Source: Minisyncoccia bacterium
GTDB lineage: Bacteria; Patescibacteriota; Minisyncoccia; Phycocordibacterales; UBA918
Length of the DNA: 64,000 nucleotides
Direction: 5' to 3'
Assembly: GCA_041736805.1 (NCBI GenBank)
Contig: JBGSSW010000004.1
Location: 51,843 to 115,842 of the forward strand
In this document: positions 1 through 35,484 of the stretch, piece after piece
Layout: every line of letters starts with the position of its first letter
Numbering within the stretch: the stretch's first letter is position 1
Translations under genes and position numbers: made by a program
The notes under the pieces: generated by a model
The model's input: the letters and a program-made list of their open reading frames with translations, nothing else
What the model was told of the DNA's origin: nothing
Databases searched by the model: none

Positions 1-318
1 GGAATGGTCTTGCTATTTGAATACGAAATACTAAATCTTAGTGAACTCATCTCTGAACGTGAAATTCTTGGAGATTACAGTGTTTTAGATACTAATTTGG
101 AAAAATGGGAGGCACTTGTAAAAGAGGAAAAAGAGGTTAGTCGTCTGTATTTTGAATTAGTAAACGCGCAACGTCAAATCATTTCAATTTTGGCTGATGA
201 AGGAGAAAGTATATCGACGGTCGAAGAAATTCAGTCTGAAGTAGCAAGAATAAAAAGTGAAATGACAGTTGCTACTACCAAGACCTTTGAGTTAAGAGAA
301 AGCCTTATTTCATTATGA
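1..318 (+). CDS. hypothetical protein; the reading frame is open from base 1, so the ORF may continue upstream of the window
   Basis: ORF track 4..318 (104 aa). The frame is open back to position 1. The stop overlaps the next gene's start (ATGA at 315-318). No recognisable motif. Confidence 0.3.
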   Translation, partial: GMVLLFEYEILNLSELISEREILGDYSVLDTNLEKWEALVKEEKEVSRLYFELVNAQRQIISILADEGESISTVEEIQSEVARIKSEMTVATTKTFELRESLISL

Positions 319-1070
319 TGAGTTTAAGTGATATATGGAAAAAATTCATAGAGTCACGTCGATCTAAAAAAACGACTACTGTTAAATACATGTTCCCATT
401 ATTTATCGGGCTATTTGCTGTTCTAGGGGCATCAGTAATTTCAGGTAGCGATTCCTATATTAGATTGGAGTCTACGCAAACTGCTGTTATGGAGGGGGAA
501 AGATTTTCCATAAACATATACGCTTTTGCAAGTACTCCTGTCAATGCTATAGATTTAACTATTACGTTTGCAACTGATATGGTTGAAATTGTGAGTGTCG
601 ATAAAGGTCAATCAGTATTAAATATTTGGACACAAGAGCCAAAAATTGAGAATGGTAAAATTACTCTAGCCGGTGGGACTTTTAGACGAGGTTTTGTCGG
701 CGAGCATTTAGTGGCTACAATTAAGGCTAAAGCAAAGTCTAATGGGACTACTGAATTTACCGTGAACGGAGCACAACTTTTGGCTGGTGACGGCAAAGGT
801 ACTCCAGTTTCAGTTACCACTAGCAATGCTTCTTCCAAAACTAGCTTTTATATTTATAATCAAAATGAAGATCCAGATGTCATATCAGCTAAACTAGGTA
901 TTAGTATAGTTGCTGATATCGACGGTGATGGTAAGGTAACTTTAAGAGATATCAGTAAGTTTCTGTCAGCTTGGAATATTCATGATAAAACCTACGATTT
1001 TAACAAAGATGGAAAAATGAATTTTATTGACTTCTCTATTATTCTAGCCAAGTCTTTCTTAGATTTATAA
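315..1070 (+). CDS. membrane-anchored surface protein with a cohesin-like beta-sandwich region and a C-terminal dockerin-type Ca-binding repeat pair
   Basis: N-terminal TM helix (FPLFIGLFAVLGASVI). C-terminus carries two dockerin-type loops, DIDGDGKVTLRD and DFNKDGKMNFID (DxDxDGxVxxxD pattern). The middle region resembles cohesin-family sequence. Confidence 0.55.
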   Translation: MMSLSDIWKKFIESRRSKKTTTVKYMFPLFIGLFAVLGASVISGSDSYIRLESTQTAVMEGERFSINIYAFASTPVNAIDLTITFATDMVEIVSVDKGQSVLNIWTQEPKIENGKITLAGGTFRRGFVGEHLVATIKAKAKSNGTTEFTVNGAQLLAGDGKGTPVSVTTSNASSKTSFYIYNQNEDPDVISAKLGISIVADIDGDGKVTLRDISKFLSAWNIHDKTYDFNKDGKMNFIDFSIILAKSFLDL

Positions 1071-3182: not shown

Positions 3183-6100
3183 ATGAAATTTCCGGGTATG
3201 TTTTGTATGCTTAAAAGACCTATCACGCTAACTTTAGTGTGGGCAATTTTTCTGCAGGTCTCAGGAGCGACTATAATTAGCGTTCTGCTTCTTACTCCAG
3301 AAAAAGCTGAAGCTGCTGCAAAAATAATAGAACCAACTCCAAGTACAAGTGCCGTCACCCATACACAGTCTGGAACTGGGATTGTGTTTGTGACACCAGA
3401 CGTTGGTTATAAGTTTCACGTCTTTGGTGCTGTTCCGGATTCAGGCAAGTGTGTATATCGTAAAACTACTGACGGTGGAATAAGCTGGGGGTCACAAGTA
3501 GTGGTTGACTCACAGACAGACTGTCAGGGGGTTTCAGTTTGGTATGATCGTTGGACCCCATCTGATACTGGAACAATAATTCATATTGCTACGTATGATA
3601 CAAGTGCAGACGAAATTTACTACAATAGTCTCGACACTACTTCTGATACTTTGCTGCTTGTCACTTCTACTAGTACTATGTTAAATCTTGTCACGGCATA
3701 CGCTGCTGGTACAAATAATGTTTCAATTACAAAAGCCACTAATGGAAACCTGTATATTAATATTGATGATGCTAATGGAACTTTTATTCGTACCTGTACA
3801 TCTACTTGCTCAATAGGTAGTAATTGGACCGCCGCTGGTACACCACCGCAGGGAAACGCCAATACCGCTAGCATCCTGATGCCTCTTTCAGGTGGGAGTG
3901 TTATGTTGGTAAACCGTAGTACCGGAGGAGTAGTGCGTTCCAGTATTTGGAATGGTGCTTCCTGGTCCGCATTTACTAATATTGATACTTCAGCAGTAGT
4001 AAACACGACCTATGATGTCGGTATGTCACTGACTCTTTCAACCAGTACAAATGATATCTACATGTCATATATTGCCGATAATAATGACTTTATCACTAGT
4101 GATCATGACTTAAGGACGGCTTTGTATAACGGCAGTAGTTGGTCGACATCTACAGCAGCAATACTGACTGATACTAGTGGTCGCGGACTACATCAGGTTA
4201 CAATGTCACGTGACGCAAGTACGGGTGATATTTATGCAGTTTACGCGGTACGGACAGATATTACTAATGCTGCCTCAGCCAATGTTTATTATGCTCGTTC
4301 GACCGACAACATGACTAGCTGGGAAAGTGAGGTAGGTCCAGTTAATACCGTCCCAGGAAATCTCTACGGTATCGACACTAACCCAATGTTTTACAGTAGA
4401 CTTTTTGTGGCTTGGTTTAATAATCTGGCTCTAGATGTCATCGGTGATAGTATTTTACCCACTCCTACCGATACTTTAGTTGCACTTGAACCTACGCCAC
4501 AAACCACCGCTTCAGGACATACGATAGCTGGAGCTGCAACTGTGTTTGTGACAGACCAAATTGGTTATCGTTTTCTACGTTTTGGGGCTGCTCCAGATAG
4601 CGGTAAATGTGTCTATCGTAAGACTCTGGACGGAGGTTTACACTGGAGTAGTCAGGTGGTGGTTGACGCACAGACTGACTGTTCGGGCTTGGCGGTTTGG
4701 TATGATAAATGGACACCGGGAGATACTGGCAGTTATATTCATATTGCGACCTACGATATAGGTAACGATGATATATTTTATAATCGCCTCGACACTGCTA
4801 ATGATTCATTGCTTCTAACTACTTCTACAACTACCATGCCGGCTACGGCCAGTGTTTTAGCAGTCGGAACAAACTATGTTGCCATCACTAAAGCAACTGA
4901 CGGAAAAGTATATGTAAATATTGATGATGCTAACGGTACGTTCTTACTTTCATGTGCAGCTACCTGTGATAATTCAAATAATTGGGCAGCTGTGGGTACT
5001 GCACCACAAGGAAATGCAGATAGCTGGAGTATCATGGCTCCATTATCAGGGGGAAACGTGATGCTTATTAACCGTTCGACTACCAATCAGATACGTTCTA
5101 GTATTTGGAATGGTTCAATTTGGTCTTCTTTTAATACAATCGACGCCGCTGCAGTCAGAAATACTGTTTACGACGTCGGTATGTCCGCTACTATAGATAT
5201 AAGCACCAATGACATTTATCTAGCATATGCCACAGACAATGATAATTTTACGACGGCAGACCACGATATAAAAACTGCTAAATATACTGGGGGAGCTTGG
5301 TCAGCTATGACTAATATCATAACTAATGACCCTGCCCGAGGTGTTCTTCAGGTAGCGATAGGGCGCGATCAAAATAATGGTGATATCTACACGGCCTATT
5401 CAATTCGTTCCCAAATTTCAACCACTACTTCCGCTAATGTCTTCTACTCACGATCAACTAATGGGATGACCAGTTGGGAAGCTGAAGAGGGCCCGATAGG
5501 ACGCGTTGAAGGTGATTATTATGGTTTGGATATGAATCCAATGTCATACGAAAGATTGTATGTTAGTTGGTTTGATAACGTGACTACGGTCAGAGACATT
5601 TATGGAAATACTCTGGCCGACATTGGACCCGATACAACCTTGAGCTCGCTAGGTACACAAAAAAGCGAGACTTTAGCTGGAGAAAATAACTTTTATGTCG
5701 GAGGTTCATTTATGTTAACGACCTTGGTGTCTAAAAACGTTAACACAATAATAATTGCTGAATCAGGGACAATTCAAGCTCGAAACAATATAAAAAATGT
5801 AAGTTTATATTACGACTTTGATACCTCGGCTCCCTATGACTGTGAAAGTGAGTCATATGGCGGAGGTGAAGCCCAGTTTGGGACAACTGTGGCAGGAGGT
5901 TTCTCTGGAGCTAACGGCGTCGCTTCATTTAGTACCTCTCCAGTCGGAATAACAGGAACAAAGAGTATGTGTATCTATCCTGTTTTCGATATCCAGTCCG
6001 GTGCCCAAGATGGAGACACGATTGAGATTTCCGTTCTAAACCCAGAGACCGACGTTTTGATTTCCGGAGTGTTTGAAGTATTTCCAGCTACTGAAGTAAG

Positions 6101-9100
6101 TATTCCTGGTACCACGACCATCGTTGATCCTCAGCTAACTCAGTCCGGTTTTCATTGGCGATTAGATAATGGCTCAGAAATAACAGCTTCATCTGCGACG
6201 GCGGGAGTTGAAAACACCAATTTAACAGCTTTGAAGATAGGAATTCCAAGGCGAGTTCGTCTCGATGTTTCGAATCAAGGTTCCACCACCTCTGTACCAG
6301 CCGCTTTTAGACTTGAGTACGGTGAAGCTGCTCCAACTTGTAACGATACAAGTTCCTGGAGTGTTGTCGGTGAACCAAGTTCAGACTGGATTATGTATGA
6401 CTCAAGTAATTTAACTGATGGTACAGACACAACTAATATTCTAGTTGCAAATGGAGGTGTAACTGACCTTGGAACGAACTTTATAGGTAGTAATGGGGGA
6501 GTCAGAGACGTAAATAATACTTTCGGAACAACCACATTAGATATAGATGATTTCGTTGAGCTAGAGTACTCAATCATGGCTTCTTCTTCGGTGGTAGAAG
6601 GTTCAACTTACTGTTTTAGAGTTTCCAGAAATGGCATTCCACTTGGTTCATATTTGGAATTTCCAAGAGTGACAATCGCGGCTGATGTGTTGGTGCAGGG
6701 TTATGGTACCCAAATAGCCACTACATCAGTTTTAGCAACTAATGTATATGCTGGAGGAGGAATCAGAATTGTAGAAAATAGTAGCAATCGTGATGTAACA
6801 AGCGTAAAGCTTTCTGAGTTTGGAACCATAGACAGTGCTACCAGTATTAAGAATCTAAAATTATTCTACGACCTTGATACCTCTGGACCGTATGACTGTG
6901 CTAGTGAATCGTACAGTGGGGGAGAAGCTCAGTACGGCTCTACAGTTAGTGATGGATTTAATGGAGTCGGCGAAACGGCTTCATTTACAGATGCAGTAAA
7001 TATATCGACAACAGAAACCCTTTGCTTATATGTGGTCTATGACGTCGGTGATTTGGCTCAAAATGGTCAGACTTTAGATATTGGGGTTAATTCTGGGTCG
7101 TCAGATGTGACTGTTACGGGAGTTGCAAGTGTCGGACCTTCAGGACTGATTAGTATATCAGGAGAAACAATTATCGAAGGGGCTATTTTATCACAAATAA
7201 ATTATCACTGGAGAAGTGACAATGGTACCCAATTAACTGCCTCGTCTGCTACCGCTGGAGTTGAAAATACGCCAATTGTGGATTTTTCTCAAAATTCTCC
7301 AATTCGTTTAAGATTTGCAGTTACAAACACCGGTCTTGCTTCTTCAGTACCAGCTCGTTTTCAACTTGAGTACTCTCCTAAAATCACTACTTGTGATATG
7401 GCCACTGTTTGGACAGATGTGAACAGTACGCTTGACGGTTGGGATATGTATAACTCGTCATATTTAACTAATGGGGAAACAACAACAAATATTGCTGTTG
7501 CTAGTGGAGGAGTTTCAAATGGTTCGGGGACATTTATCTCTAGCAATGGTGGAGTAAGGGACACTGAGTCGCTTTCCGCTACTACTTCTATTCCAGTAGG
7601 AGATTATCTTGATGTCGAATACAGTATTACTTCAACTGATCTTACTTCTTACAGTACTACTTACTGCTTTAGAGTATCTTCAAATGTTTCATCTGCCTTT
7701 GGTTCATATGTTCAATATGCTGAAATTACCACTGCCGCTAAAAGAGATTTTAAGATTCAAAGAGGCTCAGTTCAAGTGAGTGGGACTTCGGCCACAGTGG
7801 TCGCTGGAGTCGACTATACAGCTCCGGCTAGTACTTCGCTAGCCTTTGTTAGAATCACTAATTCCCATCATACAGGAGCGGGAAATTCAACAGCCTCAAC
7901 AAATCAAAACAGTGACGATGTGACAGCCTATATCTCAAATCCAGGCAACATTGCTACTAACTTTACTATTTCTCGTCCTAGTTCGGCCACGAGTAATACT
8001 CGCGTTGATTGGGAAATAATTGAATTTATCGGCAATTCTGGCACAGATAATGAAATGATTGTGCGTGGAGTTGGAACGGTTTCTTATACAACTACGTCCC
8101 TAGTGGCAACGGGTACAGTTTTATCAAACATTAGTAATAATAGTAAAGTGGTAGTTTTTGTCACTGGGGCTAGTGATAGAAATACTTCACGTAATTACTA
8201 TGCCGGATTAGTAACTTCAGCCTGGGATACTAATACAAATTCACCTGTCTTTACTCGAGGAGCCAATGGTTCAAGTATCGCTGATATAAGCTACGCAGTG
8301 GTAGAGTTTGTTGGACCAAATTGGAATGTCCAAAGAGTAGAACATACTTACATAGCATCTGGTGTAACTGAGACAGAATCAATTACAGCTGTAAATAGTC
8401 TAGCAAAAACTTTCCTTCATACACAAAAAAGAATGGGAGCCACGACTAACGTTGTTCACTATGGACATCAAGTATGGTTATCAAGTATAGGGGCTGTTTC
8501 ATTTCAGTTGGAGACTGGAGCCAGTGTAGCAGTCGGACAGACTTCAGTAGCCTGGATAATTGAAAATATCCAAGGTGGAATTGGGGCCATGAATATTCAA
8601 AGGTCTAATGGTAATACGACTGGTGGGACAGGACCGTTATCACTTTCTGTAGTGCTCTCTACCCCACTTGTAGCAGTAAATAATACTTCCATCATGGCAA
8701 ATACCAGCGGGGCTGGAGTAAATACTAGTTATCCTAGACCGATGGCGGGTTTTACTATCACTAGTACTTCCACCTATCAAATTTGGCGTAGTAATACTGG
8801 AACAACTTTAACTTACAGAGTCGAGCTAGTGGAATGGCCAGTAGCAGACTTAGCTATTCGGCAGAATTACTATCGCTTCTACGTCGATAATAATTTGCTA
8901 ACCCCTACGGACCCTTGGCCAGCCGGAGTTATTGATCTTGGTGAAAATACCTCCATTACTACTGCTGATGAACCACTTGGTAGTGGAGAACATTTAAGGA
9001 TAAGAATGAGTTTAAGAACTTCAAATGCAGCCATGCCCGCTGGTTTACAAAACTTCAAACTCCAGTATGCCCTAAGAAGTACTACTTGTTCGGCTGTTTC

Positions 9101-10508
9101 CGGAGGTAGTTGGGCAGATGTTGGTCCCGCTAGTAGTGGTAGTGTTTGGAGAGGTTATGCTGCAACTGGAACAACAGACGGAACCTCGCTTTCTATTGAT
9201 CCACCAACTGGGGGGGGCTTGCTGATTTCAGTTTCTGATCGAGCAGGATCGTTAGTGGAGGAAAATCCTTCTGCCGTCAATCCATATCCTGTGGCTGAAG
9301 GTGACAATATTGAATACGATTGGCATTTAGAACAAAACGGAGCTAATCCACAAAGCACTTATTGCTTTAGGGTTGTAAGAAGTGATAGTACTCCACTAGA
9401 AGGCTATAGTAACTATCCTCAAATTAGAACTGCCGGCTTCACTCCACTTTCAAAAAATTGGCGTTGGTACGATGATGCAGAAAATGAAACCCCATCTACA
9501 GGACTTGCCCTTGAAAATGTGGCCCCAATTGATATTGCTAACACTGATACTTTAGCTCTGCGCGTTAGCGTAAAAGAAAACAAGAATGCCCAAGGCGATA
9601 ACATTAAATTTAAGTTACAGTTTTCTGAAGATGTAACTTTTTCTAATCCAATTGATGTTGCTGCAACAAGCAGCTGTCAAGACCAATCTTTTTGGTGCTA
9701 TGTTGAAGGAGGAGGTGTAGATAATAATTATATAACAACTCAACTCCTTTCTGACGGAGATGGTTGCGTATCTAGTGTTGGAGCTGGTTGTGGACGACAT
9801 AATACAATTCCAGACTCATTAACTACACACACACATTTCGGTAGTGACACACAAGAGTATAGTTTTATGATTCGCCACGTTGCTGCTAGAGTCAATGCGG
9901 TATATTACTTCCGCCTCTACGATATAACTAACGATTCACCTGTGTATGTAGCCGTAGGTGAAACTTATCCATCGTTAGTAACAGAAGGACCCTTATTACA
10001 GTTGTCTTTGGCAGGCCTACCAGCTGGTACTACTACTGCAGGAGTTATGACGGATATTTCTACTACACCTACAGGGATTAACTTTGGAAATTTAAACTTG
10101 AATATAGAATATATTGCTGCTCATAGAGTCTCTGTTGAAACCAATGCCACAGAAGGATATCAAGTTTTAAATTTTGCTAGACAACAATTATTGAATTCAA
10201 ATGGAATTTCTATCCCTTCAGTTAGCGGCACAAATTTAATTCCCCTTAGTTGGTCTACTGCTTGTAACGCATCTTCAACCGGATGTGTAGGTTACCATTC
10301 CACTGATCCTACTTTAAGCAATGGATCGACTCGTTTTGCAGCTACAGACACCTATGCTGCACTTGAAACTAACCCAGCAGAGGTGATGTATAGTTCAATT
10401 CCATCTTCCGATACTCATGATATAGTTTACAGAATAAAGGTAGGTGAATTACAGGCAGCTGGTGATTATGAAACGGAAATAGTTTATCTAGCTGTACCTT
10501 CTTTTTAA
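3183..10508 (+). CDS. giant (2441 aa) secreted cell-surface protein with two tandem sialidase-like BNR/Asp-box beta-propeller modules plus further duplicated modules
   Basis: Single uninterrupted ORF with N-terminal signal/TM. Asp-box motifs TTDGGISW, TLDGGLHW, STDNMTSW, STNGMTSW. Large internal duplications visible in the translation. YCFRV motif occurs three times. Confidence 0.7.
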   Translation: MKFPGMFCMLKRPITLTLVWAIFLQVSGATIISVLLLTPEKAEAAAKIIEPTPSTSAVTHTQSGTGIVFVTPDVGYKFHVFGAVPDSGKCVYRKTTDGGISWGSQVVVDSQTDCQGVSVWYDRWTPSDTGTIIHIATYDTSADEIYYNSLDTTSDTLLLVTSTSTMLNLVTAYAAGTNNVSITKATNGNLYINIDDANGTFIRTCTSTCSIGSNWTAAGTPPQGNANTASILMPLSGGSVMLVNRSTGGVVRSSIWNGASWSAFTNIDTSAVVNTTYDVGMSLTLSTSTNDIYMSYIADNNDFITSDHDLRTALYNGSSWSTSTAAILTDTSGRGLHQVTMSRDASTGDIYAVYAVRTDITNAASANVYYARSTDNMTSWESEVGPVNTVPGNLYGIDTNPMFYSRLFVAWFNNLALDVIGDSILPTPTDTLVALEPTPQTTASGHTIAGAATVFVTDQIGYRFLRFGAAPDSGKCVYRKTLDGGLHWSSQVVVDAQTDCSGLAVWYDKWTPGDTGSYIHIATYDIGNDDIFYNRLDTANDSLLLTTSTTTMPATASVLAVGTNYVAITKATDGKVYVNIDDANGTFLLSCAATCDNSNNWAAVGTAPQGNADSWSIMAPLSGGNVMLINRSTTNQIRSSIWNGSIWSSFNTIDAAAVRNTVYDVGMSATIDISTNDIYLAYATDNDNFTTADHDIKTAKYTGGAWSAMTNIITNDPARGVLQVAIGRDQNNGDIYTAYSIRSQISTTTSANVFYSRSTNGMTSWEAEEGPIGRVEGDYYGLDMNPMSYERLYVSWFDNVTTVRDIYGNTLADIGPDTTLSSLGTQKSETLAGENNFYVGGSFMLTTLVSKNVNTIIIAESGTIQARNNIKNVSLYYDFDTSAPYDCESESYGGGEAQFGTTVAGGFSGANGVASFSTSPVGITGTKSMCIYPVFDIQSGAQDGDTIEISVLNPETDVLISGVFEVFPATEVSIPGTTTIVDPQLTQSGFHWRLDNGSEITASSATAGVENTNLTALKIGIPRRVRLDVSNQGSTTSVPAAFRLEYGEAAPTCNDTSSWSVVGEPSSDWIMYDSSNLTDGTDTTNILVANGGVTDLGTNFIGSNGGVRDVNNTFGTTTLDIDDFVELEYSIMASSSVVEGSTYCFRVSRNGIPLGSYLEFPRVTIAADVLVQGYGTQIATTSVLATNVYAGGGIRIVENSSNRDVTSVKLSEFGTIDSATSIKNLKLFYDLDTSGPYDCASESYSGGEAQYGSTVSDGFNGVGETASFTDAVNISTTETLCLYVVYDVGDLAQNGQTLDIGVNSGSSDVTVTGVASVGPSGLISISGETIIEGAILSQINYHWRSDNGTQLTASSATAGVENTPIVDFSQNSPIRLRFAVTNTGLASSVPARFQLEYSPKITTCDMATVWTDVNSTLDGWDMYNSSYLTNGETTTNIAVASGGVSNGSGTFISSNGGVRDTESLSATTSIPVGDYLDVEYSITSTDLTSYSTTYCFRVSSNVSSAFGSYVQYAEITTAAKRDFKIQRGSVQVSGTSATVVAGVDYTAPASTSLAFVRITNSHHTGAGNSTASTNQNSDDVTAYISNPGNIATNFTISRPSSATSNTRVDWEIIEFIGNSGTDNEMIVRGVGTVSYTTTSLVATGTVLSNISNNSKVVVFVTGASDRNTSRNYYAGLVTSAWDTNTNSPVFTRGANGSSIADISYAVVEFVGPNWNVQRVEHTYIASGVTETESITAVNSLAKTFLHTQKRMGATTNVVHYGHQVWLSSIGAVSFQLETGASVAVGQTSVAWIIENIQGGIGAMNIQRSNGNTTGGTGPLSLSVVLSTPLVAVNNTSIMANTSGAGVNTSYPRPMAGFTITSTSTYQIWRSNTGTTLTYRVELVEWPVADLAIRQNYYRFYVDNNLLTPTDPWPAGVIDLGENTSITTADEPLGSGEHLRIRMSLRTSNAAMPAGLQNFKLQYALRSTTCSAVSGGSWADVGPASSGSVWRGYAATGTTDGTSLSIDPPTGGGLLISVSDRAGSLVEENPSAVNPYPVAEGDNIEYDWHLEQNGANPQSTYCFRVVRSDSTPLEGYSNYPQIRTAGFTPLSKNWRWYDDAENETPSTGLALENVAPIDIANTDTLALRVSVKENKNAQGDNIKFKLQFSEDVTFSNPIDVAATSSCQDQSFWCYVEGGGVDNNYITTQLLSDGDGCVSSVGAGCGRHNTIPDSLTTHTHFGSDTQEYSFMIRHVAARVNAVYYFRLYDITNDSPVYVAVGETYPSLVTEGPLLQLSLAGLPAGTTTAGVMTDISTTPTGINFGNLNLNIEYIAAHRVSVETNATEGYQVLNFARQQLLNSNGISIPSVSGTNLIPLSWSTACNASSTGCVGYHSTDPTLSNGSTRFAATDTYAALETNPAEVMYSSIPSSDTHDIVYRIKVGELQAAGDYETEIVYLAVPSF
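3336..4470 (+). repeat. intragenic repeat A1 (~375 aa module with two Asp-boxes) of the giant surface gene
   Basis: Residues ~52-430 (TPSTSAVTHTQSGTGIVFVTPDVGYKFHVFGAVPDSGKCVYRKTTDGGISW...) are paralogous to residues ~431-800. Boundaries approximate. Confidence 0.6.
4473..5580 (+). repeat. intragenic repeat A2 (second copy of the Asp-box module)
   Basis: TPQTTASGHTIAGAATVFVTDQIGYRFLRFGAAPDSGKCVYRKTLDGGLHW... parallels A1 along its whole length. Boundaries approximate. Confidence 0.6.
5790..6700 (+). repeat. intragenic repeat B1 (module starting NVSLYYDFDTSAPYDCESESYGGGEAQFG, ending YCFRVS)
   Basis: Paralogous to B2, ~352 aa downstream. Boundaries approximate. Confidence 0.5.
6846..7760 (+). 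repeat. intragenic repeat B2 (IKNLKLFYDLDTSGPYDCASESYSGGEAQYG ... YCFRVS)
   Basis: Same motif order as B1 (FYDxDTSxPYDC, HWRxDNG, ATAGVENT, YCFRVS). Boundaries approximate. Confidence 0.5.
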
Positions 10509-30721: not shown

Positions 30722-31693
30722 ATGATGAATCACCTTCAAATTGCTGTTTTAAGAGGAGGGACAAGTGATGAATACCAGGTTTCGCTACAGACTGGTTCAG
30801 CTGTTTTACGTGCTCTTTCAGAATCTGGATATCTTGTAAAAGACATAGTAATCACAAAAAATGGGGATTGGTTGGACAGAGGTATTGTTAAATCACCTGA
30901 AATAGCTTTAACCTCAGTCGACGTTGTATTTGTGGCGCTACATGGAACCTTCGGAGAAGATGGTGAAGTACAAAAAATTTTACAAAGAATAGGGATTCCT
31001 TTCACCGGAAGCAACTCCTTTTCTTCTGCTTTGGCATTTAACAAACAGACTACAAAAGAATTTTTAAAGCAGTATGACATTCTAACTCCAAAGTATTTAG
31101 TTGTTACAAAAGATGATATTAGTATTATTGACGAAGTAGTTGCTCAAGTTGAAGATAATTTTGGACCTGAGTATATTATTAAACCAACTTCAAGTGGGTC
31201 GTCTTTTGGGGTTTCTTTTGTTAAAACTAAAAGTTCACTGAAAAGTAATCTTCTTAAATCTTTAAATCTTTATGAAAAAGTCTTGATAGAAGAATTTATA
31301 TTTGGTAGAGAAGCGACTAGTGCCGTTTTAGAAAACTATCGAAACGAAAATATTTATGTTTTTCCAACCATTGAAATAATTACTCCTAATAATCAATCAT
31401 ATTTCGATACCGAATCTAAGTATAATGGAAAAACTTTAGAAATATGTCCATCTGATTTTCCTTACTCTGAAAGAACAAAAATTGCTGAAATTTCTACTCT
31501 GATTCATAGAGAGTTGGGATTGTCTCAGTATTCAAGAAGTGATTTTATTGTTAGTCAAAATGGAATCTACTTTCTAGAAGTTAATACCCTACCTGGCTTG
31601 ACTTCTGAATCACTATACCCGAAAGCAGCTAATTCGGTCGGACTTACTTTTAATCAACTTATTTCGCATTTGGTTAGTACGGCAAACTGTTAG
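30722..31693 (+). CDS. ddl: D-alanine--D-alanine ligase
   Basis: IAVLRGGTSDEYQVSLQTGSAV, VVFVALHGTFGEDGEVQ, GIPFTGSNSFSSALAFNKQTTKEFL, ATP-grasp C-terminus (LEVNTLPGLT). Confidence 0.85.
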   Translation: MMNHLQIAVLRGGTSDEYQVSLQTGSAVLRALSESGYLVKDIVITKNGDWLDRGIVKSPEIALTSVDVVFVALHGTFGEDGEVQKILQRIGIPFTGSNSFSSALAFNKQTTKEFLKQYDILTPKYLVVTKDDISIIDEVVAQVEDNFGPEYIIKPTSSGSSFGVSFVKTKSSLKSNLLKSLNLYEKVLIEEFIFGREATSAVLENYRNENIYVFPTIEIITPNNQSYFDTESKYNGKTLEICPSDFPYSERTKIAEISTLIHRELGLSQYSRSDFIVSQNGIYFLEVNTLPGLTSESLYPKAANSVGLTFNQLISHLVSTANC

Positions 31694-31734
31694 TAAGGTT
31701 TATTAACTTAGTAATTATTTGTTATAATTTTAGT

Positions 31735-32343
31735 ATGGAAGGATCCAGACATGAACGAGCTGTAATTGTAGCAATATCATATGTAATTGGTTTTACAGCT
31801 GCTTTTTTACTGTACGCTGCACATTCTGATTTCAGTAATGAAGACAACGGTTATTTAAATGAAAGTGCAAGTTTGCCGGCTGCAGTTATTCAGTCAGACT
31901 TCAGCACAGGTAATACTGAAATTTCTAGCGCTATTGGAAAAGTTAACTACACAGATGGCAAACTTGAGTATCTAAGTAACACAGGAACTAGACTTTTGTC
32001 GTTTAACCCAGACATAACTGGTTTTTCAAAATTGAAAAATTTGGAACAACAAGGCACCCATACTAGAGACATTTTCTATTCAGTCTCAGACGACAATAAG
32101 CAAGTTTTTTTCTGCGAAAATGGCACAAGGGAGATCGACTACTGTAAGGGTTATATTTACAGCGTTGAAGAAGATTTAATTTATCCAATTACTGAAAATG
32201 GGACTTTTCCTATTTTTACTAGTGAAGAAGCTTCAGAAGCTATATGGTCTTCAGGTCAGTTATTAATTAAAAACTCCTATTCTGCAAATAAGCTCGAACC
32301 GTGGCTATTCATTACGGAGAAGTCAGCGTTTGACTTGCAATAA
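31735..32343 (+). CDS. hypothetical membrane-anchored protein
   Basis: N-terminal TM (VIVAISYVIGFTAAFLLYAA). TATAAT at 31723-31728 immediately upstream, so the transcript is possibly leaderless. Confidence 0.4.
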   Translation: MEGSRHERAVIVAISYVIGFTAAFLLYAAHSDFSNEDNGYLNESASLPAAVIQSDFSTGNTEISSAIGKVNYTDGKLEYLSNTGTRLLSFNPDITGFSKLKNLEQQGTHTRDIFYSVSDDNKQVFFCENGTREIDYCKGYIYSVEEDLIYPITENGTFPIFTSEEASEAIWSSGQLLIKNSYSANKLEPWLFITEKSAFDLQ

Positions 32344-32386
32344 ATATGTCTGTATTATAGGCAAAATTAAAGTCTTACTTTAATTT

Positions 32387-32462
32387 GGGCCAGTAGCTCA
32401 CTTGGTAGAGCGCCTCATTTGCACTGAGGAGGCAGGGAGTTCGAATCTTCTCTGGTCCACCA
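32387..32462 (+). tRNA. tRNA-Ala (anticodon UGC), 76 nt with encoded CCA
   Basis: Cloverleaf folded by hand. Acceptor GGGCCAG/CTGGTCC with the G3:U70 alanine identity pair. D-arm GCTC-ACTTGGTA-GAGC. Anticodon loop TTTGCAC. T-loop TTCGAAT. 3' CCA present. Confidence 0.85.
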
Positions 32463-32557
32463 TCTAATTTACTTGTAGCAGCTCGACTAGTTCAGTTAAT
32501 TTCAATTTTGAAAGCTTGAGCGTAAGTAAAATTTAAGTTATTATTCTTCGTCCCTTA

Positions 32558-32630
32558 GGGCCCTTAGCTCATCCGGTAGAGCGCTTCCATGGCATGGAAG
32601 AGGTGAGCGGTTCAAGTCCGCTAGGGTCCA
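32558..32630 (+). tRNA. tRNA-Ala (anticodon GGC), 73 nt, CCA not encoded
   Basis: Acceptor GGGCCCT/AGGGTCC with G3:U70. Anticodon stem CTTCC/GGAAG, loop ATGGCAT (anticodon GGC). T-arm AGCGG-TTCAAGT-CCGCT. Discriminator A. Confidence 0.8.
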
Positions 32631-32632
32631 CA
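32616..32632 (+). repeat. 17-nt direct repeat copy 1 (gtccgctagggtccaca), the 3' end of tRNA-Ala(GGC); att-core-like
   Basis: Identical 17-mer recurs at 32800-32816. Confidence 0.6.
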
Positions 32633-32657
32633 AAAAACATCCTTTTTTTGTGGACCC
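32624..32657 (+). terminator. hairpin terminator overlapping the 3' end of tRNA-Ala(GGC)
   Basis: GGGTCCACAAAAAA-catcc-TTTTTTTGTGGACCC perfect 14-bp stem. A second perfect hairpin CAAAGCAAC-attc-GTTGCTTTG follows at 32662-32683. Confidence 0.5.
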
Positions 32658-32799
32658 TAGACAAAGCAACATTCGTTGCTTTGGTCGGACTTGAACCACC
32701 GGAACGATGTGAGTTTACGAACGAGTGAGGTGTGTCCCGCGGCACCTGCTAGATTGTGAGCGAATGCAAAACAATATAGCTTGGTGACCGTCAGGATCT

Positions 32800-32816
32800 G
32801 TCCGCTAGGGTCCACA
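32800..32816 (+). repeat. 17-nt direct repeat copy 2 (gtccgctagggtccaca), a duplicated tRNA-Ala 3' end with no tRNA body upstream
   Basis: Exact copy of the tRNA 3' end, 184 bp downstream of copy 1. Upstream sequence (cgtcaggatct) does not form a T-arm. Confidence 0.6.
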
Positions 32817-32887
32817 TATTAACATACTAGATATAGTATGTTATCTCATAACTCGAACAATTCCGTTCATCAGAAAGGAGACCTGCG

Positions 32888-33262
32888 ATGGTCGCTCTCA
32901 AACGTCAGAACATCCCCGCTGGCAAGTTCCGTGTCCTCGGCTGCGACCTGTTCGATCACTCGGTCGACGTCGTCGAAGACTGCGACACCAAGGACGAGGC
33001 CTTCAAGATCGCCGACGACCACAACCGTCAGCGCACGGGGTCGATGTCCGACGTGTACTACGTCTACAACGACAAAGGCAGCTATCACCGTGGCGAGGAA
33101 GCGATCAAGAATGCCAAGGGCGAGAGACCACCGTCAGCGTCAGCCCGTAAACGCAAGCGTCGGCATTGCCGGCACGAGACCCCAGAGATAACATCAAGGG
33201 GTCTCATTTCGTTTATAATTCTACTTTTCACTCAAACTCTTTGCAAAGTAGGACATCCTTGA
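32888..33262 (+). CDS. small GC-rich gene of foreign composition, hypothetical protein; 3' end uncertain (possibly a shorter product or frameshifted)
   Basis: Strong SD (AAAGGAG) 8 nt upstream of the ATG. Pronounced GC3 codon bias in this frame (gtc, ctc, ggc, aag, ttc, gac) for the first ~80 codons, fading after ~33120. Competing overlapping frames look like GC-rich noise. Confidence 0.4.
   Translation: MVALKRQNIPAGKFRVLGCDLFDHSVDVVEDCDTKDEAFKIADDHNRQRTGSMSDVYYVYNDKGSYHRGEEAIKNAKGERPPSASARKRKRRHCRHETPEITSRGLISFIILLFTQTLCKVGHP
33176..33213 (+). terminator. hairpin (GAGACCCC...GGGGTCTC) at the end of the first GC-rich cassette
   Basis: 8-bp GC stem with a 14-nt loop. A weak T-rich tail follows. 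Confidence 0.35.
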
Positions 33263-33327
33263 TACGTCACCCAAGACTTCATTAAATATCCCCTAAATTG
33301 GTTCTGTAAATTTCCACTATAGTCCAC
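33242..33327 (+). repeat. 86-bp direct repeat DR1, containing a promoter-like TTGATA-17-TTAAAT and ending in a degenerate tRNA-Ala 3'-end-like ctatagtccac
   Basis: About 92% identical to DR2 at 33816-33901. Each copy sits just after a cassette terminator. Confidence 0.6.
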
Positions 33328-33398
33328 GAGTACAGAAAGAGCGCCTTTGTTGTTCGTGGACTATAAGCAAGCAAACTACCTTGCTTGCTTGAGGCCTT

Positions 33399-33427
33399 TT
33401 CGTGTAGATTGACAAGTCACACTATTC
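33399..33427 (+). promoter_or_regulatory. putative sigma-70 promoter TTGACA-17-TAGTAT upstream of the 33478 gene
   Basis: Consensus -35 TTGACA at 33399-33404, 17-nt spacer, -10 TAGTAT at 33422-33427. SD AGGAG precedes the ATG at 33478. Confidence 0.4.
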
Positions 33428-33477
33428 ATGCTAGTATTTTGAATGAAATTCTTGTTATTCCACAACCAGGAGATGTC

Positions 33478-33747
33478 ATGGCGATTTTGAAATGTCGTTA
33501 TTGCAAAGAAGGTGTGCTTACGGGCGCGCGTCATCACTGCAAGCAAATGCAACTTGCAAAACAACCATCGGCTGTTGTCGATGAGAGTGAAGGAAGCATC
33601 TTTCTCTCATTCGCGGTCGCAGCGGCAACAGACAATTGGGCAATTGGGACGCTTGTTGGAGGCAATCTCATTGGTGGAATTGTCGGCGACGCAGTAGTAG
33701 GAAACAACGACTCATGTAACGACGGTGACTCTGGTAGCGACGACTGA
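33478..33747 (+). CDS. small protein (89 aa) with N-terminal Cys/His cluster (CRYC...HHC), glycine-zipper hydrophobic segment and acidic tail; hypothetical (bacteriocin- or membrane-peptide-like)
   Basis: ATG preceded by AGGAG. Sequence MAILKCRYCKEGVLTGARHHCKQ...FLSFAVAAATDNWAIGTLVGGNLIGGIVGDAVVGNNDSCNDGDSGSDD. The ORF track's 33385 start is an upstream extension lacking an SD. Confidence 0.5.
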   Translation: MAILKCRYCKEGVLTGARHHCKQMQLAKQPSAVVDESEGSIFLSFAVAAATDNWAIGTLVGGNLIGGIVGDAVVGNNDSCNDGDSGSDD

Positions 33748-33754
33748 GCGCAAC

Positions 33755-33805
33755 TAGCCCCACGAGGAAGTCCCACGACTTCACAACTCGTGGGGCTTCT
33801 TCTTT
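33755..33805 (+). terminator. rho-independent terminator after the 33478 gene
   Basis: GCCCCACGAG...CTCGTGGGGC 10-bp stem enclosing an inner GAAGTC/GACTTC stem, followed by TTCTTCTTTTC. Confidence 0.6.
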
Positions 33806-33815
33806 TCTAAAATTA

Positions 33816-33901
33816 ACTGCAAAGTAGGACAAGATTGATACGTCACCCAAAACTTCATTAAATACCCCCTACATTGGTTCTGTAAATTTCCCCTATAGTC
33901 C
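33816..33901 (+). repeat. 86-bp direct repeat DR2 (copy of DR1)
   Basis: tgcaaagtaggacaAGATtgatacgtcacccaaAacttcattaaataCcccctaCattggttctgtaaatttccCctatagtccac. About 7 mismatches to DR1. Confidence 0.6.
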
Positions 33902-34022
33902 ACAAACAAATTAAAATCAATAGAGCACAAGACCAAGTTTGTGAAATACTGCCAATGGACTTGTAAAATATAGATAAAGGTATATATTTAGACTAAATAT
34001 GAAAAGGAGACGTAGAGCAACC

Positions 34023-34142
34023 ATGTTTATAATGATAGCTATCATTGCTGCTGTTTGCTTTATTCTCAGGTCTGATTACTTCAGCCACATCACTTCGAAT
34101 CAGATTATCAATGATTCTAGAGCAAGTTTGCTTGCTGAATAA
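34023..34142 (+). CDS. tiny hydrophobic peptide (39 aa) downstream of DR2; hypothetical
   Basis: ATG with AAGGAG 12 nt upstream. MFIMIAIIAAVCFILRSDYFSHITSNQIINDSRASLLAE. Below the ORF-track length cut-off. Converges on the HAD gene stop 18 bp away. Confidence 0.3.
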   Translation: MFIMIAIIAAVCFILRSDYFSHITSNQIINDSRASLLAE

Positions 34143-34160
34143 AGAGCCAGGTCTTTAAAA

Positions 34161-34856
34161 CTATTGTTTAAACATTTTAACTAACTTTCGGTAAGTGTCT
34201 AAATAGTCTACCACTGGTACCGTTTCAATTACGCCAATCACAGCTTCATCATTACCTCCCGGGTATAGTCCATCTCCAAAATAAATACAATTATTTTTAT
34301 CCCATTTCATTAGATCAATGAGCTTTTGAACATTGGTTCCTTTATGTCTGTCTTTATGGATGTAATCAAAACTTGTAGAACCTCCGATTTTAACTATTAA
34401 CTCATCAGATTCAAATGGTATTGTCTTAATTAAATTCTCACGGATCCTTCTGTCCGGGTCGTAAGTGTTTTTTATTTCGTGCGGAGCAGTATTTCCAATT
34501 GGGCTAAAAGTTATCTGTGCACCTCTATCCTCAATCGGATTCCATTCTTGGTTTATATCATGTTCAATTAGATTTGATATTTTTTTAATGTGATTCAAAA
34601 TTTCTAGTCGATGATTATTGTCTAAAGGAATATTCCACAATTCTTTATCATCCAAATCAGTTGCATGATTTCCATTTTGGCCAAGTGTATATGAACGCAA
34701 ATAATTACTTTGTGCTCCAATTTTCACCACTTCTTGTCCAGAAACTATAACAATGTCCTGAGAAAAGCTATTTAGTAGATCAAACATGTCGTCAAGGATT
34801 AGTTGCCTGGCCGGAGCTATCGTCTGATCCATATCAAAAAAGAGATGTTTATACAT
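34161..34856 (-). CDS. HAD-IIB hydrolase, phosphomannomutase (PMM)-like
   Basis: DxDxT motif FFDMDQTI. Mid-region IVSGQEVVKI and C-terminal IYFGDGLYPGGNDEAV resemble the eukaryotic-type PMM family (FFGDKTxxGGNDxE). Confidence 0.55.
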   Translation of the reverse strand: MYKHLFFDMDQTIAPARQLILDDMFDLLNSFSQDIVIVSGQEVVKIGAQSNYLRSYTLGQNGNHATDLDDKELWNIPLDNNHRLEILNHIKKISNLIEHDINQEWNPIEDRGAQITFSPIGNTAPHEIKNTYDPDRRIRENLIKTIPFESDELIVKIGGSTSFDYIHKDRHKGTNVQKLIDLMKWDKNNCIYFGDGLYPGGNDEAVIGVIETVPVVDYLDTYRKLVKMFKQ

Positions 34857-34944
34857 ATCCTACAAGAATACAATATAATTTTGTATTGTGAATACACATC
34901 TGTCAGTTACCAAATAGATATTCATTTGTTATTATGAATGGGTT

Positions 34945-35484
34945 ATGGAATCTCTTATAATGACTCTAAACATTGTTCAATCATTTGCTATTGCAATAGG
35001 TGCAGGTACATCAACTCTCGCTGTAGTTAATTTTTTTTACGCCATAGCCGACGGTAAAATTGATGAAACGGAAAGAAACTTTATGGGTATTACCTATGTA
35101 GTACTTAGAGTCGCAATGGCCTTTATATTGATTACTTTAATTCTATTAACAATTTTGGGTTGTCTTTCTGAAGGGGCGGCTTTCTTCACCGGCTACACAA
35201 CTGCTGAATCAATTTTGGTTGCGATTCTGTTTGTTAACTCTTTTTTGATGACAATTCGCCTGATGCCAAGTACCTTTGGTCCAGCTATCCAGGCGTCTAG
35301 CTGGTACTCCTTAGCATTTTTGCAAGCATTGTATACCTACTACCAAGCCGACTTTAGTCTACTAGTATTTTGTTTTTCTTACTTAACATTTCTTTTCTTT
35401 GCTGTTTCTCTCATTAATAGCATAATGGCTTATCTAAAAGATAAATCAACTTCGGAAAAGGCAGCAGAAAATAGTCCTTCCTAG
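34945..35484 (+). CDS. hypothetical polytopic membrane protein (about 4 TM)
   Basis: Hydrophobic segments throughout. Divergent from the HAD gene. Confidence 0.45.
   Translation: MESLIMTLNIVQSFAIAIGAGTSTLAVVNFFYAIADGKIDETERNFMGITYVVLRVAMAFILITLILLTILGCLSEGAAFFTGYTTAESILVAILFVNSFLMTIRLMPSTFGPAIQASSWYSLAFLQALYTYYQADFSLLVFCFSYLTFLFFAVSLINSIMAYLKDKSTSEKAAENSPS

What the first reader, a model, noticed from the sequence alone, without database searches (positions are those of the whole stretch)
32616..32816. Duplicated 17-nt tRNA-Ala 3' end (att-like direct repeat) flanking a 167-bp hairpin-rich segment: integration scar at the tRNA
gtccgctagggtccaca (end of T-stem, acceptor 3' strand, discriminator plus 2 nt) occurs at 32616-32632 and again at 32800-32816 without a tRNA body. 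This is the classic signature of site-specific integration into a tRNA 3' end (attL/attR core). Between the copies lie two perfect hairpins and a minus-strand T-arm-like fragment (GTCGGACTTGAACC is the reverse complement of GGTTCAAGTCCGAC). No integrase is present, so this is probably a decayed or satellite element.
Basis: partly seen in the sequence, partly recalled or inferred. Interest (0 to 1): 0.55.

Follow-up and report, generated by a model that had tools for sequence, protein, structure and literature searches.

The report
Folded mini-insertion at tRNA gene end
The repeat marks a small, tightly folded, gene-less piece of DNA inserted at the end of an alanine tRNA gene, heading a 1.3-kb string of captured foreign mini-genes; the same kind of insert recurs at other tRNA genes in related small-genome bacteria, which hints at a gene-capture route not yet described for them.

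Summary
The 17-mer repeat is real: 32616-32632 (3' end of tRNA-Ala(GGC)) and 32800-32816, with 0 matches expected by chance. (1) The array runs to 33904. After the 184-nt unit come two GC-rich promoter-ORF-terminator cassettes, each ending in a 97-nt arm plus a degenerate copy of the core. (2) The 167 nt between the copies are not decayed junk. They belong to a conserved family of 150-185-nt, non-coding modules found just downstream of tRNA-Ala, tRNA-Asn and tRNA-Glu genes in several Patescibacteria (CPR) contigs. Each module holds an inverted copy of the local tRNA's T-loop-to-3' end, split by a hairpin, then a branched interior, then a direct copy of the tRNA end. All instances fold alike (z about -6 to -8.5; 19 of 32 consensus pairs show compensatory changes), and both arms track the local tRNA allele. 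A relative without the module (L204) has the tRNA end abutting the same downstream gene; L076 has a 181-nt insertion there bounded by a 16-nt repeat. No recombinase is in the window and no Rfam family matches. Best reading: a non-autonomous, structured integrative module at the head of an accretion array. The recombinase and any single-strand intermediate are inferred.

The parts
32558..32631 (+). tRNA-Ala(GGC), the integration target; intact
   Evidence: ARAGORN; Rfam tRNA 58.2 bits; promoter-like site at 32516-32544
32616..32632 (+). Core copy X1 (17 nt): T-loop last 2 nt, T-stem 3' strand, acceptor 3' strand, discriminator, +2
   Evidence: Exact 17-mer, 0 expected by chance
32621..32660 (.). 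Perfect palindrome (17-nt arms, 6-nt loop) made of the tRNA end plus A6 and its inverted copy. It sits where the other loci have a terminator hairpin between tRNA and module
   Evidence: the repeat finder I2, 100% complementary; compare L013, L029, L076, L020
32649..32660 (+). X'a: inverted copy of acceptor 3' strand + discriminator (5' strand of outer stem P1)
   Evidence: I17: 12/12 complementary to 32805-32816; folds
32662..32683 (+). Hairpin H1 (9 bp, loop ATTC), inserted on the 5' side only at the acceptor/T-stem junction
   Evidence: Folds; the equivalent hairpin has a different sequence in every other instance
32686..32697 (+). X'b: inverted copy of T-stem 3' strand (P2 5' strand, 32686-32690) and of the T-loop (unpaired)
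   Evidence: I16: 12/12 reverse complement of 32609-32620; allele-specific in other loci
32698..32799 (+). Branched interior of the module (class II; motif ACGAACGAGTGAGG shared with L028 S2 and L020)
   Evidence: Folds; alignment A2; sequences
32800..32816 (+). Core copy X2 (17 nt), 3' strand of P2+P1; right boundary of the module
   Evidence: Exact repeat; DR table
32819..32847 (+). ORF A promoter, degenerate here (TTAACA-17-TATCTC); it contains a palindrome that is conserved as a palindrome in homologous loci
   Evidence: Read from sequence; homologues have TTGACA-17-TATTTT or TATTGT; not called by the scan in the window
32888..33262 (+). ORF A (GC 0.59 over 32888-33150); cargo of unknown function. 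Frameshifted 8 codons before the family stop, which in the other frame falls at 33148-33150
   Evidence: 27 homologues of about 86 aa; alignment A1; alternative frame gives ETTVSVSP*
33176..33205 (+). ORF A terminator hairpin GAGACCCC...GGGGTCTC followed by a T-rich tail; conserved in homologous loci
   Evidence: Sequence; the same hairpin in L005, L028, L029
33231..33327 (+). Arm 1 (97 nt) ending in degenerate core X3 (CTATAGTCCAC, 33317-33327)
   Evidence: D1: 88% identical to 33807-33903; the same arm flanks ORF B in L199
33354..33390 (+). Inverted core (TCGTGGACTATA, pairs with 33318-33329) and an adjacent hairpin (about 33366-33390): the X'-H1 grammar repeated at the head of the ORF B unit. 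The terminator between X3 and X' is half-deleted here and intact in L199
   Evidence: I18 12/12; L199 comparison
33409..33437 (+). ORF B promoter TTGACA-17-TAGTAT (10/12, TG extension)
   Evidence: Promoter scan
33478..33747 (+). ORF B (89 aa, GC 0.50), near-orphan cargo
   Evidence: Only one homologous cluster, 90% identity; no Pfam hit
33756..33797 (+). ORF B terminator hairpin followed by a T-rich tail
   Evidence: I22 11/11; overlapping terminator-like site 33779-33795 in the scan
33807..33904 (+). Arm 2 ending in degenerate core X4 (33888-33904, 76% identical to the 17-mer); right end of the array
   Evidence: D1 and D2; GC falls to 0.35 beyond it

Best explanation
The 184-nt unit 32633-32816 is a cargo-less, non-autonomous integrative module inserted at the 3' end of tRNA-Ala(GGC). 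The 17-mer X is the recombination core, present once in the regenerated tRNA and once at the module's far end. The module is all structure. It has an inverted copy (X') of the tRNA's T-loop-to-3' end, split by hairpin H1 at the acceptor/T-stem junction, then a branched interior, then the direct copy X. On a single strand, X' and X pair and rebuild a duplex copy of the tRNA gene's acceptor/T-stem end. The module is the tRNA-proximal, and so probably the youngest, member of a 1.3-kb accretion array (32616-33904). The two older units are foreign promoter-ORF-terminator cassettes, each ending in a 97-nt arm plus a degenerate core, and each pushed outward by later arrivals. Proposed mechanism: a site-specific recombinase supplied in trans, most likely a tyrosine recombinase encoded elsewhere in the genome or on a helper element, exchanges strands within X between the incoming element and the tRNA gene. 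The fold is conserved while the sequence drifts, both strands fold equally, and the unit is too small to circularise easily as duplex DNA. I therefore infer that the site is recognised as folded single-stranded DNA, in the manner of integron attC sites or the CTX-phi attP(+). Shown: the repeat, the array, the conserved fold with covariation, arms that match the local tRNA allele, filled and empty sites in relatives, and the absence of a local recombinase. Inferred: the recombinase class, supply in trans, the single-strand intermediate, and the order of arrival.
For: 1. Core repeat and array. The exact 17-mer appears twice with 0 expected. Six core motifs lie between 32621 and 33903. There are 97-nt arms at 88% identity. 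GC is 0.47-0.59 inside the array against 0.35-0.36 in the flanks.
2. Recurrence. The same layout (tRNA, spacer or terminator, X', H1, interior, X, promoter, ORF) occurs at another tRNA-Ala(GGC) (L028), at tRNA-Asn (L013, L029, L076) and at tRNA-Glu (L020). Exact repeats are 13-22 nt and periods 153-184 nt.
3. Conserved fold. Ten instances share the P1/H1/P2/H2/H3 architecture. DNA-parameter z-scores run from -6.0 to -8.6, except one instance at -2.8. RNAalifold on seven class-I instances gives 19 of 32 pairs with compensatory double changes. A structural descriptor finds 10 hits in real sequence and 0, 0, 0 in shuffles.
4. Both arms follow the local tRNA allele. Examples are CCCGCGGAGCA in L076 against CCGCCGGAGCA in L013. 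This includes the T-loop (TTCGAAT against TTCGAGT against TTCAAGT), which is unpaired in the fold.
5. Filled and empty sites. L204:1918-1933 aligns to both L076:2513-2528 and L076:2694-2709, so L076 has a 181-nt insertion bounded by a 16-nt repeat. L028 S1 is a 156-nt unit bounded by a 22-nt repeat, inserted ahead of an existing terminator, module and ORF A.
6. Cassette turnover. A 940-nt terminator-promoter-ORF unit is present in L077 and absent in L076. The ORF B unit has a different left neighbour in L199.
7. Position and symmetry. The module lies between a terminator and a promoter. Its stems are about 96% Watson-Crick on either strand. No Rfam family matches.
8. No recombinase in 64 kb.
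Against: No recombinase has been identified, here or next to any related array. No excised or circular form has been seen, and I found no empty site for the window's own tRNA-Ala(GGC). In three lineages the module sits directly in front of the same ORF A cassette. That could mean module plus ORF A move as one unit rather than arriving separately, and all comparison loci were reached through ORF A homology, so that pairing may be an ascertainment effect. Two modules (L005, L029c) are not next to a tRNA, and one array (L029) contains a short module with a different tRNA-like end, which simple repeated integration at one tRNA does not explain. The right-hand cores X3 and X4 are degenerate (12 of 15 and 13 of 17). 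The covariance model covers only class-I interiors and does not detect the window's class-II copy. Symmetric folding does not exclude an RNA role. The L204/L076 difference could be a deletion between the repeats rather than an insertion.
Confidence: 0.55

Rival explanations
1. Plain decayed scar. A once-larger integrase-bearing element integrated at the tRNA and was then almost wholly deleted. What remains is random debris between attL and attR, with hairpins that arose by chance.
For: No integrase in the window. Decay is visible elsewhere in the array: ORF A is frameshifted and its promoter is degenerate, the terminator after X3 is half-deleted compared with L199, and X3 and X4 are degenerate. 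Remnant partial tRNAs in islands are well known (tycheposon preprint; CIMEs).
Against: Random deletion would not give the same 153-184-nt period at six sites on four tRNA types. It would not give the same five-helix architecture held by compensatory changes. It would not give an inverted arm matching each local tRNA allele, nor fold z-scores of -6 to -8.6.
Confidence: 0.1
2. A structured RNA. The module would be transcribed and act as a tRNA-like element, for example an RNase P/Z processing signal, a transcript-end stabiliser or an insulator between the tRNA and downstream genes. Its similarity to the neighbouring tRNA would be kept up by gene conversion.
For: Strong conserved secondary structure with covariation. 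The P1+P2 helix copies the acceptor/T-stem coaxial helix, with its break at the natural junction. In the window there is no canonical terminator between tRNA and module, so read-through from the tRNA promoter is possible.
Against: In five other loci a terminator hairpin with a T-run separates the tRNA from the module, and a promoter follows the module, so it lies outside the obvious transcription units. Both strands fold equally, with only about 4% G-T pairs. No Rfam family matches, even at E up to 1 in the window. The 3:70 position becomes A:U, which removes the alanine identity pair (sequence). An RNA role does not explain the allele-specific copy of the unpaired T-loop or the repeat-bounded presence/absence. 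A primer-binding-site role is ruled out because X' lacks the complement of CCA.
Confidence: 0.13
3. Cassette exchange by nuclease-triggered or transformation-driven homologous recombination, with no dedicated site-specific recombinase. The duplicated tRNA ends and arms would simply serve as homology that lets blocks be copied between genomes while keeping the tRNA intact.
For: An HNH-type ORF lies next to a duplicated tRNA-Pro 3' half in L076 and is absent from L204. The 940-nt L077 indel is bounded by only a 9-10-nt repeat and has no module. ORF B is flanked by 97-nt arms of 86-94% identity, which would support homologous exchange. No integrase was found anywhere near the arrays.
Against: It gives no reason for a conserved folded, gene-less module, for the inverted arm, or for identity blocks that begin in the T-loop and end exactly at the tRNA 3' end. 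The HNH hit is borderline (21.6 bits against a cut-off of 21.4), and no nuclease lies in the window's array.
Confidence: 0.12
4. A MITE-like transposon. X' and X would be terminal inverted repeats of a miniature element moved by a transposase.
For: Size of 125-170 nt, terminal inverted repeats of 8-17 bp, a strong hairpin fold and no coding capacity.
Against: The 'TIR' sequence changes with the neighbouring tRNA. There is no target-site duplication. There is only one copy in 64 kb. It always sits at a tRNA 3' end or in a cassette array. No transposase is present.
Confidence: 0.04

Closest known systems
Tandem accretion of integrative elements at tRNA genes, leaving integrase-less att-flanked units (CIMEs; tycheposon island remnants)
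   Same: Repeats of the tRNA 3' end bound each unit, and the tRNA is regenerated. Units stack outward from the tRNA, the cargo is foreign in composition, and older units decay. The definitions of CIME and accretion are in PMC5704250. [quoted passage not shown]
   Different: The units here are tiny (about 0.15-0.6 kb, against kilobases to tens of kilobases). The tRNA-proximal unit has no cargo at all and is a conserved folded structure, not a decay product. No integrase-bearing parent element was found in the window, in related loci or in the viral collection.
Integron gene cassettes and attC sites
   Same: Arrays of small single-gene cassettes of mixed, mostly unknown function. The recombination site is an imperfect palindrome whose structure, not sequence, is conserved, with a feature on one strand only (H1 here, extrahelical bases in attC; the attC part is from memory). 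ORF-less cassettes exist in integrons too (from memory).
   Different: No IntI or attI lies next to the array. There are no R''/R' boxes. The cassettes carry their own promoters and terminators. The site copies a tRNA end and the array is anchored on a tRNA gene.
CTX-phi-type folded single-strand attP (elements exploiting host Xer recombinases)
   Same: Two inverted copies of a host-site-like sequence about 100-150 nt apart can fold on one strand into a duplex that mimics the host target. No recombinase is encoded by the element. The CTX-phi details are from memory.
   Different: The mimicked target is a tRNA gene end rather than dif. There is no phage genome or replication gene. A single-strand stage has not been shown.
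Classical tyrosine-integrase attP sites for tRNA 3' ends (for example phage mv4, lambda-type COC'/arm organisation)
   Same: The identity block runs from the T-loop to the tRNA 3' end. The module's size (150-185 bp) is close to that of a full attP (about 240 bp; organisation described in bioRxiv 10.1101/2023.11.06.565760).
   Different: Classical attP sites are protein-binding arrays on duplex DNA attached to a phage or element genome. They are not reported to be a stand-alone unit, to have a conserved multi-helix fold, or to carry an inverted full copy of the tRNA end.

Membership tests
tRNA-targeted site-specific integrative element (att-flanked islet / CIME-like) | Direct repeat identical to the tRNA 3' end on both sides of the inserted DNA | tested here: met
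   17/17 at 32616 and 32800, 0 expected by chance; 13-22 nt at five other tRNA-adjacent modules
tRNA-targeted site-specific integrative element (att-flanked islet / CIME-like) | Target tRNA gene regenerated intact | tested here: met
   ARAGORN and Rfam call a full tRNA-Ala(GGC)
tRNA-targeted site-specific integrative element (att-flanked islet / CIME-like) | Empty site in a related genome, with the indel bounded by the repeat | tested here: inconclusive
   Met for the module family: L204 is empty and L076 filled, a 181-nt indel with a 16-nt repeat. Not found for the window's own tRNA-Ala(GGC). The syntenic relative L074 has only tRNA-Ala(UGC), with its own repeat-flanked islet
tRNA-targeted site-specific integrative element (att-flanked islet / CIME-like) | Integrase encoded in or next to the element (autonomous form) | tested here: not met
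   No recombinase Pfam hit among window ORFs of 150 aa or more; none among called genes of related loci. So it is at most a non-autonomous member
tRNA-targeted site-specific integrative element (att-flanked islet / CIME-like) | CIME sense: derived by decay of an ICE or IME | not testable with these tools
   No parent element found. The conserved fold and size argue against origin by decay
Integron cassette / attC | Integron integrase, attI and Pc next to the array | tested here: not met
Integron cassette / attC | R'' (RYYYAAC) and R' (GTTRRRY) boxes in attC order and spacing | tested here: not met
   No such pair in any of six repeat-bounded modules, on either strand
Integron cassette / attC | Imperfect palindrome with conserved structure, variable sequence and a single-strand asymmetry | tested here: met
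   (H1 on the 5' side only)
Integron cassette / attC | Promoterless cassettes | tested here: not met
   The cassettes have their own sigma-70-like promoters and terminators (sequences)
CTX-phi-type folded attP (Xer-exploiting elements) | Two inverted host-site-like sequences that fold into a mimic of the host site | tested here: met
   X'/X pairing of 12+5 bp reproduces the tRNA gene end
CTX-phi-type folded attP (Xer-exploiting elements) | Target is dif and the recombinase is XerCD; single-stranded replicative form | not testable with these tools
   The target here is a tRNA gene, so the dif criterion is not met on its face. The recombinase and DNA form cannot be tested in silico
MITE | Target-site duplication and many dispersed copies with the same terminal repeats | tested here: not met
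   No TSD; one copy in the window; the terminal repeats differ with the tRNA
Any described RNA family (Rfam 15), including tRNA-like elements | Match to a curated covariance model | tested here: not met
   Only the two tRNAs at E up to 1 in 31500-35000. Only tRNAs and group I introns at gathering score in seven related loci

The most novel reading that the evidence does not exclude
Patescibacteria (CPR) may have an integron-like gene-capture system anchored on tRNA genes. In it, small self-expressed cassettes and cargo-less modules would be inserted through a folded single-stranded attachment site that mimics the tRNA gene's acceptor/T-arm end, using a recombinase encoded elsewhere. This would be a third class of structure-recognised recombination site beside integron attC and CTX-phi attP, and a missing route of horizontal gene transfer in bacteria that otherwise appear poor in mobile elements.
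Probability: 0.25. Interest if true: 0.85.

Novelty: new variant of a known kind. Interest (0 to 1): 0.62.

Why it matters
Small-genome CPR bacteria have few recognised mobile elements, and how they acquire accessory genes is poorly understood. This locus and its relatives show that their tRNA genes head short arrays of foreign single-gene cassettes that turn over between close relatives. They also show a conserved, gene-less, highly structured module that carries both strands of the local tRNA's 3' end. If the module is the cis-acting site of a recombination system supplied in trans, it provides a sequence and structure handle, usable as a descriptor or covariance model, for finding such arrays and their recombinase across metagenomes. 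If the site is recognised in folded single-stranded form, it would add a new case to the very short list of structure-specific recombination sites. The practical point is that this feature should not be annotated as a pseudo-tRNA or dismissed as a scar.

Tried and rejected
1. A tRNA or tRNA-like gene on the minus strand of 32649-32760. ARAGORN and Rfam find nothing, and the flanks of the inverted T-loop do not form a T-stem (sequence).
2. A primer-binding site for tRNA-primed reverse transcription. X' lacks the complement of the CCA end (TGT..., not TGGTG...), and no reverse transcriptase is present.
3. Canonical attC. No R''/R' boxes.
4. MITE. No target-site duplication, and the terminal repeats vary with the tRNA.
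5. IS200/IS605-type hairpin ends or IS110 bridge-RNA-like guides. I considered these from memory only. No TnpA, TnpB or DEDD recombinase was found, and X and X' pair with each other rather than sitting in open loops.
6. A phage or satellite origin. There are no viral-contig matches to the 97-nt arm, the 17-mer or the Asn-module signature. The 120+ hits to a 14-mer of the interior were all chance matches without module context. ORF A has no hit in 50,697 phage records.
7. ORF A as a recombination factor. The AlphaFold model (pLDDT 77) has no significant PDB or viral structure match and no Pfam hit, and modules occur with other cargo, so ORF A is treated as cargo.
8. ORF B. It is a near-orphan and gave no functional lead.
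9. The covariance model R1 (class-I interior) found no further modules beyond those seen by eye, apart from one weak hit at L013:7532-7633. It does not detect the window's class-II copy.
10. Assembly breaks of same-population Logan contigs at 32422 and 32787. I checked these as possible evidence of strain variation, but their positions do not match the branch point expected for a U0-less variant, so they are uninformative.

Full report
**Observation.** The 17-mer GTCCGCTAGGGTCCACA occurs exactly twice in the window, at 32616-32632 and 32800-32816, with none expected in shuffles. The first copy is the 3' end of tRNA-Ala(GGC) 32558-32631, and the second has no tRNA body. No ORF of 150 aa or more in the 64 kb hits a recombinase family.

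- The fragments TGTGGACCCTAG (32649-32660) and CGGACTTGAACC (32686-32697) together form an inverted copy of the tRNA's T-loop-to-3' end, split by the 9-bp hairpin H1.
- This inverted copy pairs with the second 17-mer as 12 + 5 bp. The whole 168-nt segment folds into one branched structure: -42 kcal/mol with DNA parameters (z = -6.8) and -72 kcal/mol with RNA parameters (z = -5.6).
- The core motif CTA[GT][GA]GTCCAC occurs six times between 32621 and 33903 and essentially nowhere else.
- After the second 17-mer come two GC-rich units (ORF A 0.59 and ORF B 0.50, against 0.35-0.36 in the flanks). Each has a promoter, RBS, ORF and terminator hairpin, then a 97-nt arm (88% identical between the two) ending in a degenerate core.
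- The feature is therefore a 1.3-kb array, 32616-33904. ORF A is frameshifted 8 codons before its family's stop and its promoter is degenerate, so this cassette is decaying.

**Related loci.** ORF A belongs to a family of proteins of about 86 aa (27 clusters). Members occur in Kaiserbacteria, Paceibacterota, Jorgensenbacteria, Saccharibacteria and Moraniibacteriota MAGs, with more distant ones elsewhere. In the closer relatives the gene sits in the same grammar as in the window, but built on other tRNAs:
- L028: a different tRNA-Ala(GGC), with two tandem modules.
- L013, L029 and L076: tRNA-Asn.
- L020: a related module after tRNA-Glu.

At six tRNA-adjacent sites the exact repeat ending at the tRNA 3' end is 13-22 nt and the repeat period is 153-184 nt. 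Modules also precede other cargo: a DUF7352 protein, a histidine phosphatase and orphan ORFs. The ORF B unit recurs in L199, bracketed by the same arm plus core, but behind a DUF305 gene instead of ORF A.

**A conserved fold.** Ten instances fold into the same architecture. It consists of outer stem P1 (acceptor-like), hairpin H1 on the 5' side only, a 5-bp inner stem P2 (T-stem-like), a long hairpin H2 and a short hairpin H3. z-scores run from -6 to -8.6, with one instance at -2.8. Sequences differ (46% mean column identity) while helices are kept: 19 of 32 consensus pairs in seven class-I instances show compensatory double changes. A descriptor for P1-H1-P2 finds 10 hits in real sequence and none in three shuffled sets. 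No Rfam family matches.

Both arms follow the local tRNA allele. That includes the T-loop (TTCGAGT in L013, TTCGAAT in L076, TTCAAGT in the window), although this stretch is unpaired in the fold. Pairing within the module therefore cannot explain the match, which ties the module to the tRNA gene itself. The stems are about 96% Watson-Crick, and the two strands fold equally well. The module normally lies between a terminator hairpin and the next promoter.

**Filled and empty sites.**
- L204 has the same tRNA-Ala, tRNA-Pro, tRNA-Asn(intron), ORF A synteny as L076. In L204 the ORF A promoter starts 3 nt after the tRNA-Asn end.
- The 16-nt tRNA end of L204 aligns to both copies in L076. L076 therefore carries a 181-nt insertion (terminator plus module) bounded by that repeat, with flanks 80-82% identical.
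- L028 S1 is a 156-nt unit bounded by a 22-nt repeat, sitting ahead of an already complete terminator-module-ORF A arrangement.
- Cassette turnover also happens away from modules. A 940-nt terminator-promoter-ORF unit is present in L077 and absent from L076, bounded by a 9-10-nt repeat.
- The syntenic relative L074 has a plain islet (ORF A plus a 94-aa ORF) after tRNA-Ala(UGC), closed by a degenerate repeat of the tRNA end and flank.

**Interpretation.** The segment is an intact member of a family of cargo-less, structured, non-autonomous integrative modules. It heads an accretion array of the kind described for CIMEs and tycheposon islands, here in miniature. I infer recombination within X by a recombinase supplied in trans. 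I also infer that the site is read as folded single-stranded DNA, for three reasons: structure rather than sequence is conserved, the fold is strand-symmetric, and the unit is very small for a duplex circle. None of these mechanistic steps has been shown.

**Rivals.**
- Random scar: contradicted by the conservation.
- Structured RNA: possible, but disfavoured by position, strand symmetry, the allele-specific unpaired T-loop and the repeat-bounded indel.
- Homology-driven or nuclease-driven exchange: has some support from an HNH-type ORF and short-repeat indels, but does not explain the module.
- MITE: no target-site duplication, and the ends vary with the tRNA.

**Caveats.**
- All comparison loci were reached through ORF A homology, so the frequent module-ORF A pairing may be an ascertainment effect.
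- There are only about ten instances, on metagenomic contigs.
- The window's own empty site was not found.
- Two modules are not next to a tRNA, and one array mixes core types.
- The covariance model covers only one interior class.
- Placing the window's organism in Patescibacteria is an inference from synteny with L074 and from its relatives.
- Literature searches found no description of such a module, but the library is incomplete.

Noticed in passing
window 32621-32660: A perfect 40-nt palindrome (17-nt arms) uses the tRNA-Ala(GGC) acceptor 3' strand as one arm. If the tRNA transcript reads through, this hairpin would compete with tRNA folding. Other loci have an ordinary terminator hairpin at this position, so the window copy looks like a deletion derivative.
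   Followed up: partly
window 32819-32847 and homologous promoters (L013 ~7929-7957, L005 ~1176-1205, L028 ~1012-1040, L076 ~2710-2738, L204 ~1937-1965): The ORF A promoter carries an inverted repeat between and overlapping the -35 and -10 boxes. Most loci have ACATACT..AGTATGT, while L005 and L204 have ATAGCACAC..GTGTGCTAT. The palindrome is kept with a different sequence, which suggests an operator or a hairpin. A small conserved 5'-UTR hairpin (GAAC..GTTC) follows it.
   Followed up: no
window 32888-33262: ORF A is frameshifted near its 3' end and reads through its own terminator hairpin to give 124 aa instead of about 86. This is either early pseudogenisation or a sequencing error.
   Followed up: yes
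window 34023-34142: A 39-aa hydrophobic ORF (MFIMIAIIAAVCFILRSDYF...) with a strong RBS and promoter-like sites (33941-33988) lies just outside the last core copy. It is AT-rich like the host and could be the original neighbour of the tRNA.
   Followed up: no
L029 1701-1951; L076 2183-2481; L204 ~1577-1895: The tRNA-Asn genes that head these arrays are split in the anticodon loop by group I introns (Rfam RF00028, 84 and 56 bits for L029 and L076; L204 read from sequence only), so ARAGORN misses them. The phenomenon is already described for Patescibacteria (PMC13011429).
   Followed up: yes
L076 1599-2015 versus L204 1391-1500: L076 has a second copy of the tRNA-Pro(CGG) 3' half. The downstream copy matches L204's tRNA (94.6%), so it is the displaced original. 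L076 also has an adjacent minus-strand 87-aa HNH-type ORF that L204 lacks. This may be a homing-endonuclease-type insertion at a tRNA gene.
   Followed up: partly
L077 970-1909 versus L076 ~3482-3492: A clean 940-nt presence/absence of a terminator-promoter-270-aa-ORF unit (GC 0.59) lies between a stop codon and its terminator. It is bounded by CCGTCGCTC / CGCCGCTCGC, and the empty site reads CCGCCGCTCGC. This is a second, module-free mode of cassette insertion.
   Followed up: partly
L005 ~1560-1680 and L029 ~3310-3425 (minus strand): The tail after ORF A encodes a conserved short peptide on the opposite strand (LEWRDAFRxFDWAxEY..QYHLE), with synonymous differences between the two loci. It may be a small convergent gene sharing the terminator.
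   Followed up: no
L005 28-72, 1003-1047, 1672-1716: The same ~44-nt terminator hairpin (AGCAAAGGAATGTAYAAACCCCGCC....GGCGGGGTTTTGCGTT) occurs three times and delimits successive cassettes. The first two copies are each followed directly by a module.
   Followed up: partly
window 32422 and 32787: Logan contigs from the same population (100% identical to the window) end at 32422 and start at 32787, so short-read assemblies break around the two tRNA-Ala genes and the module.
   Followed up: partly
window 315-1070 and 3183-10508: A protein with cohesin and dockerin domains and a 2441-aa ORF with no Pfam match lie upstream. These are large surface-type proteins, unrelated to the finding.
   Followed up: no
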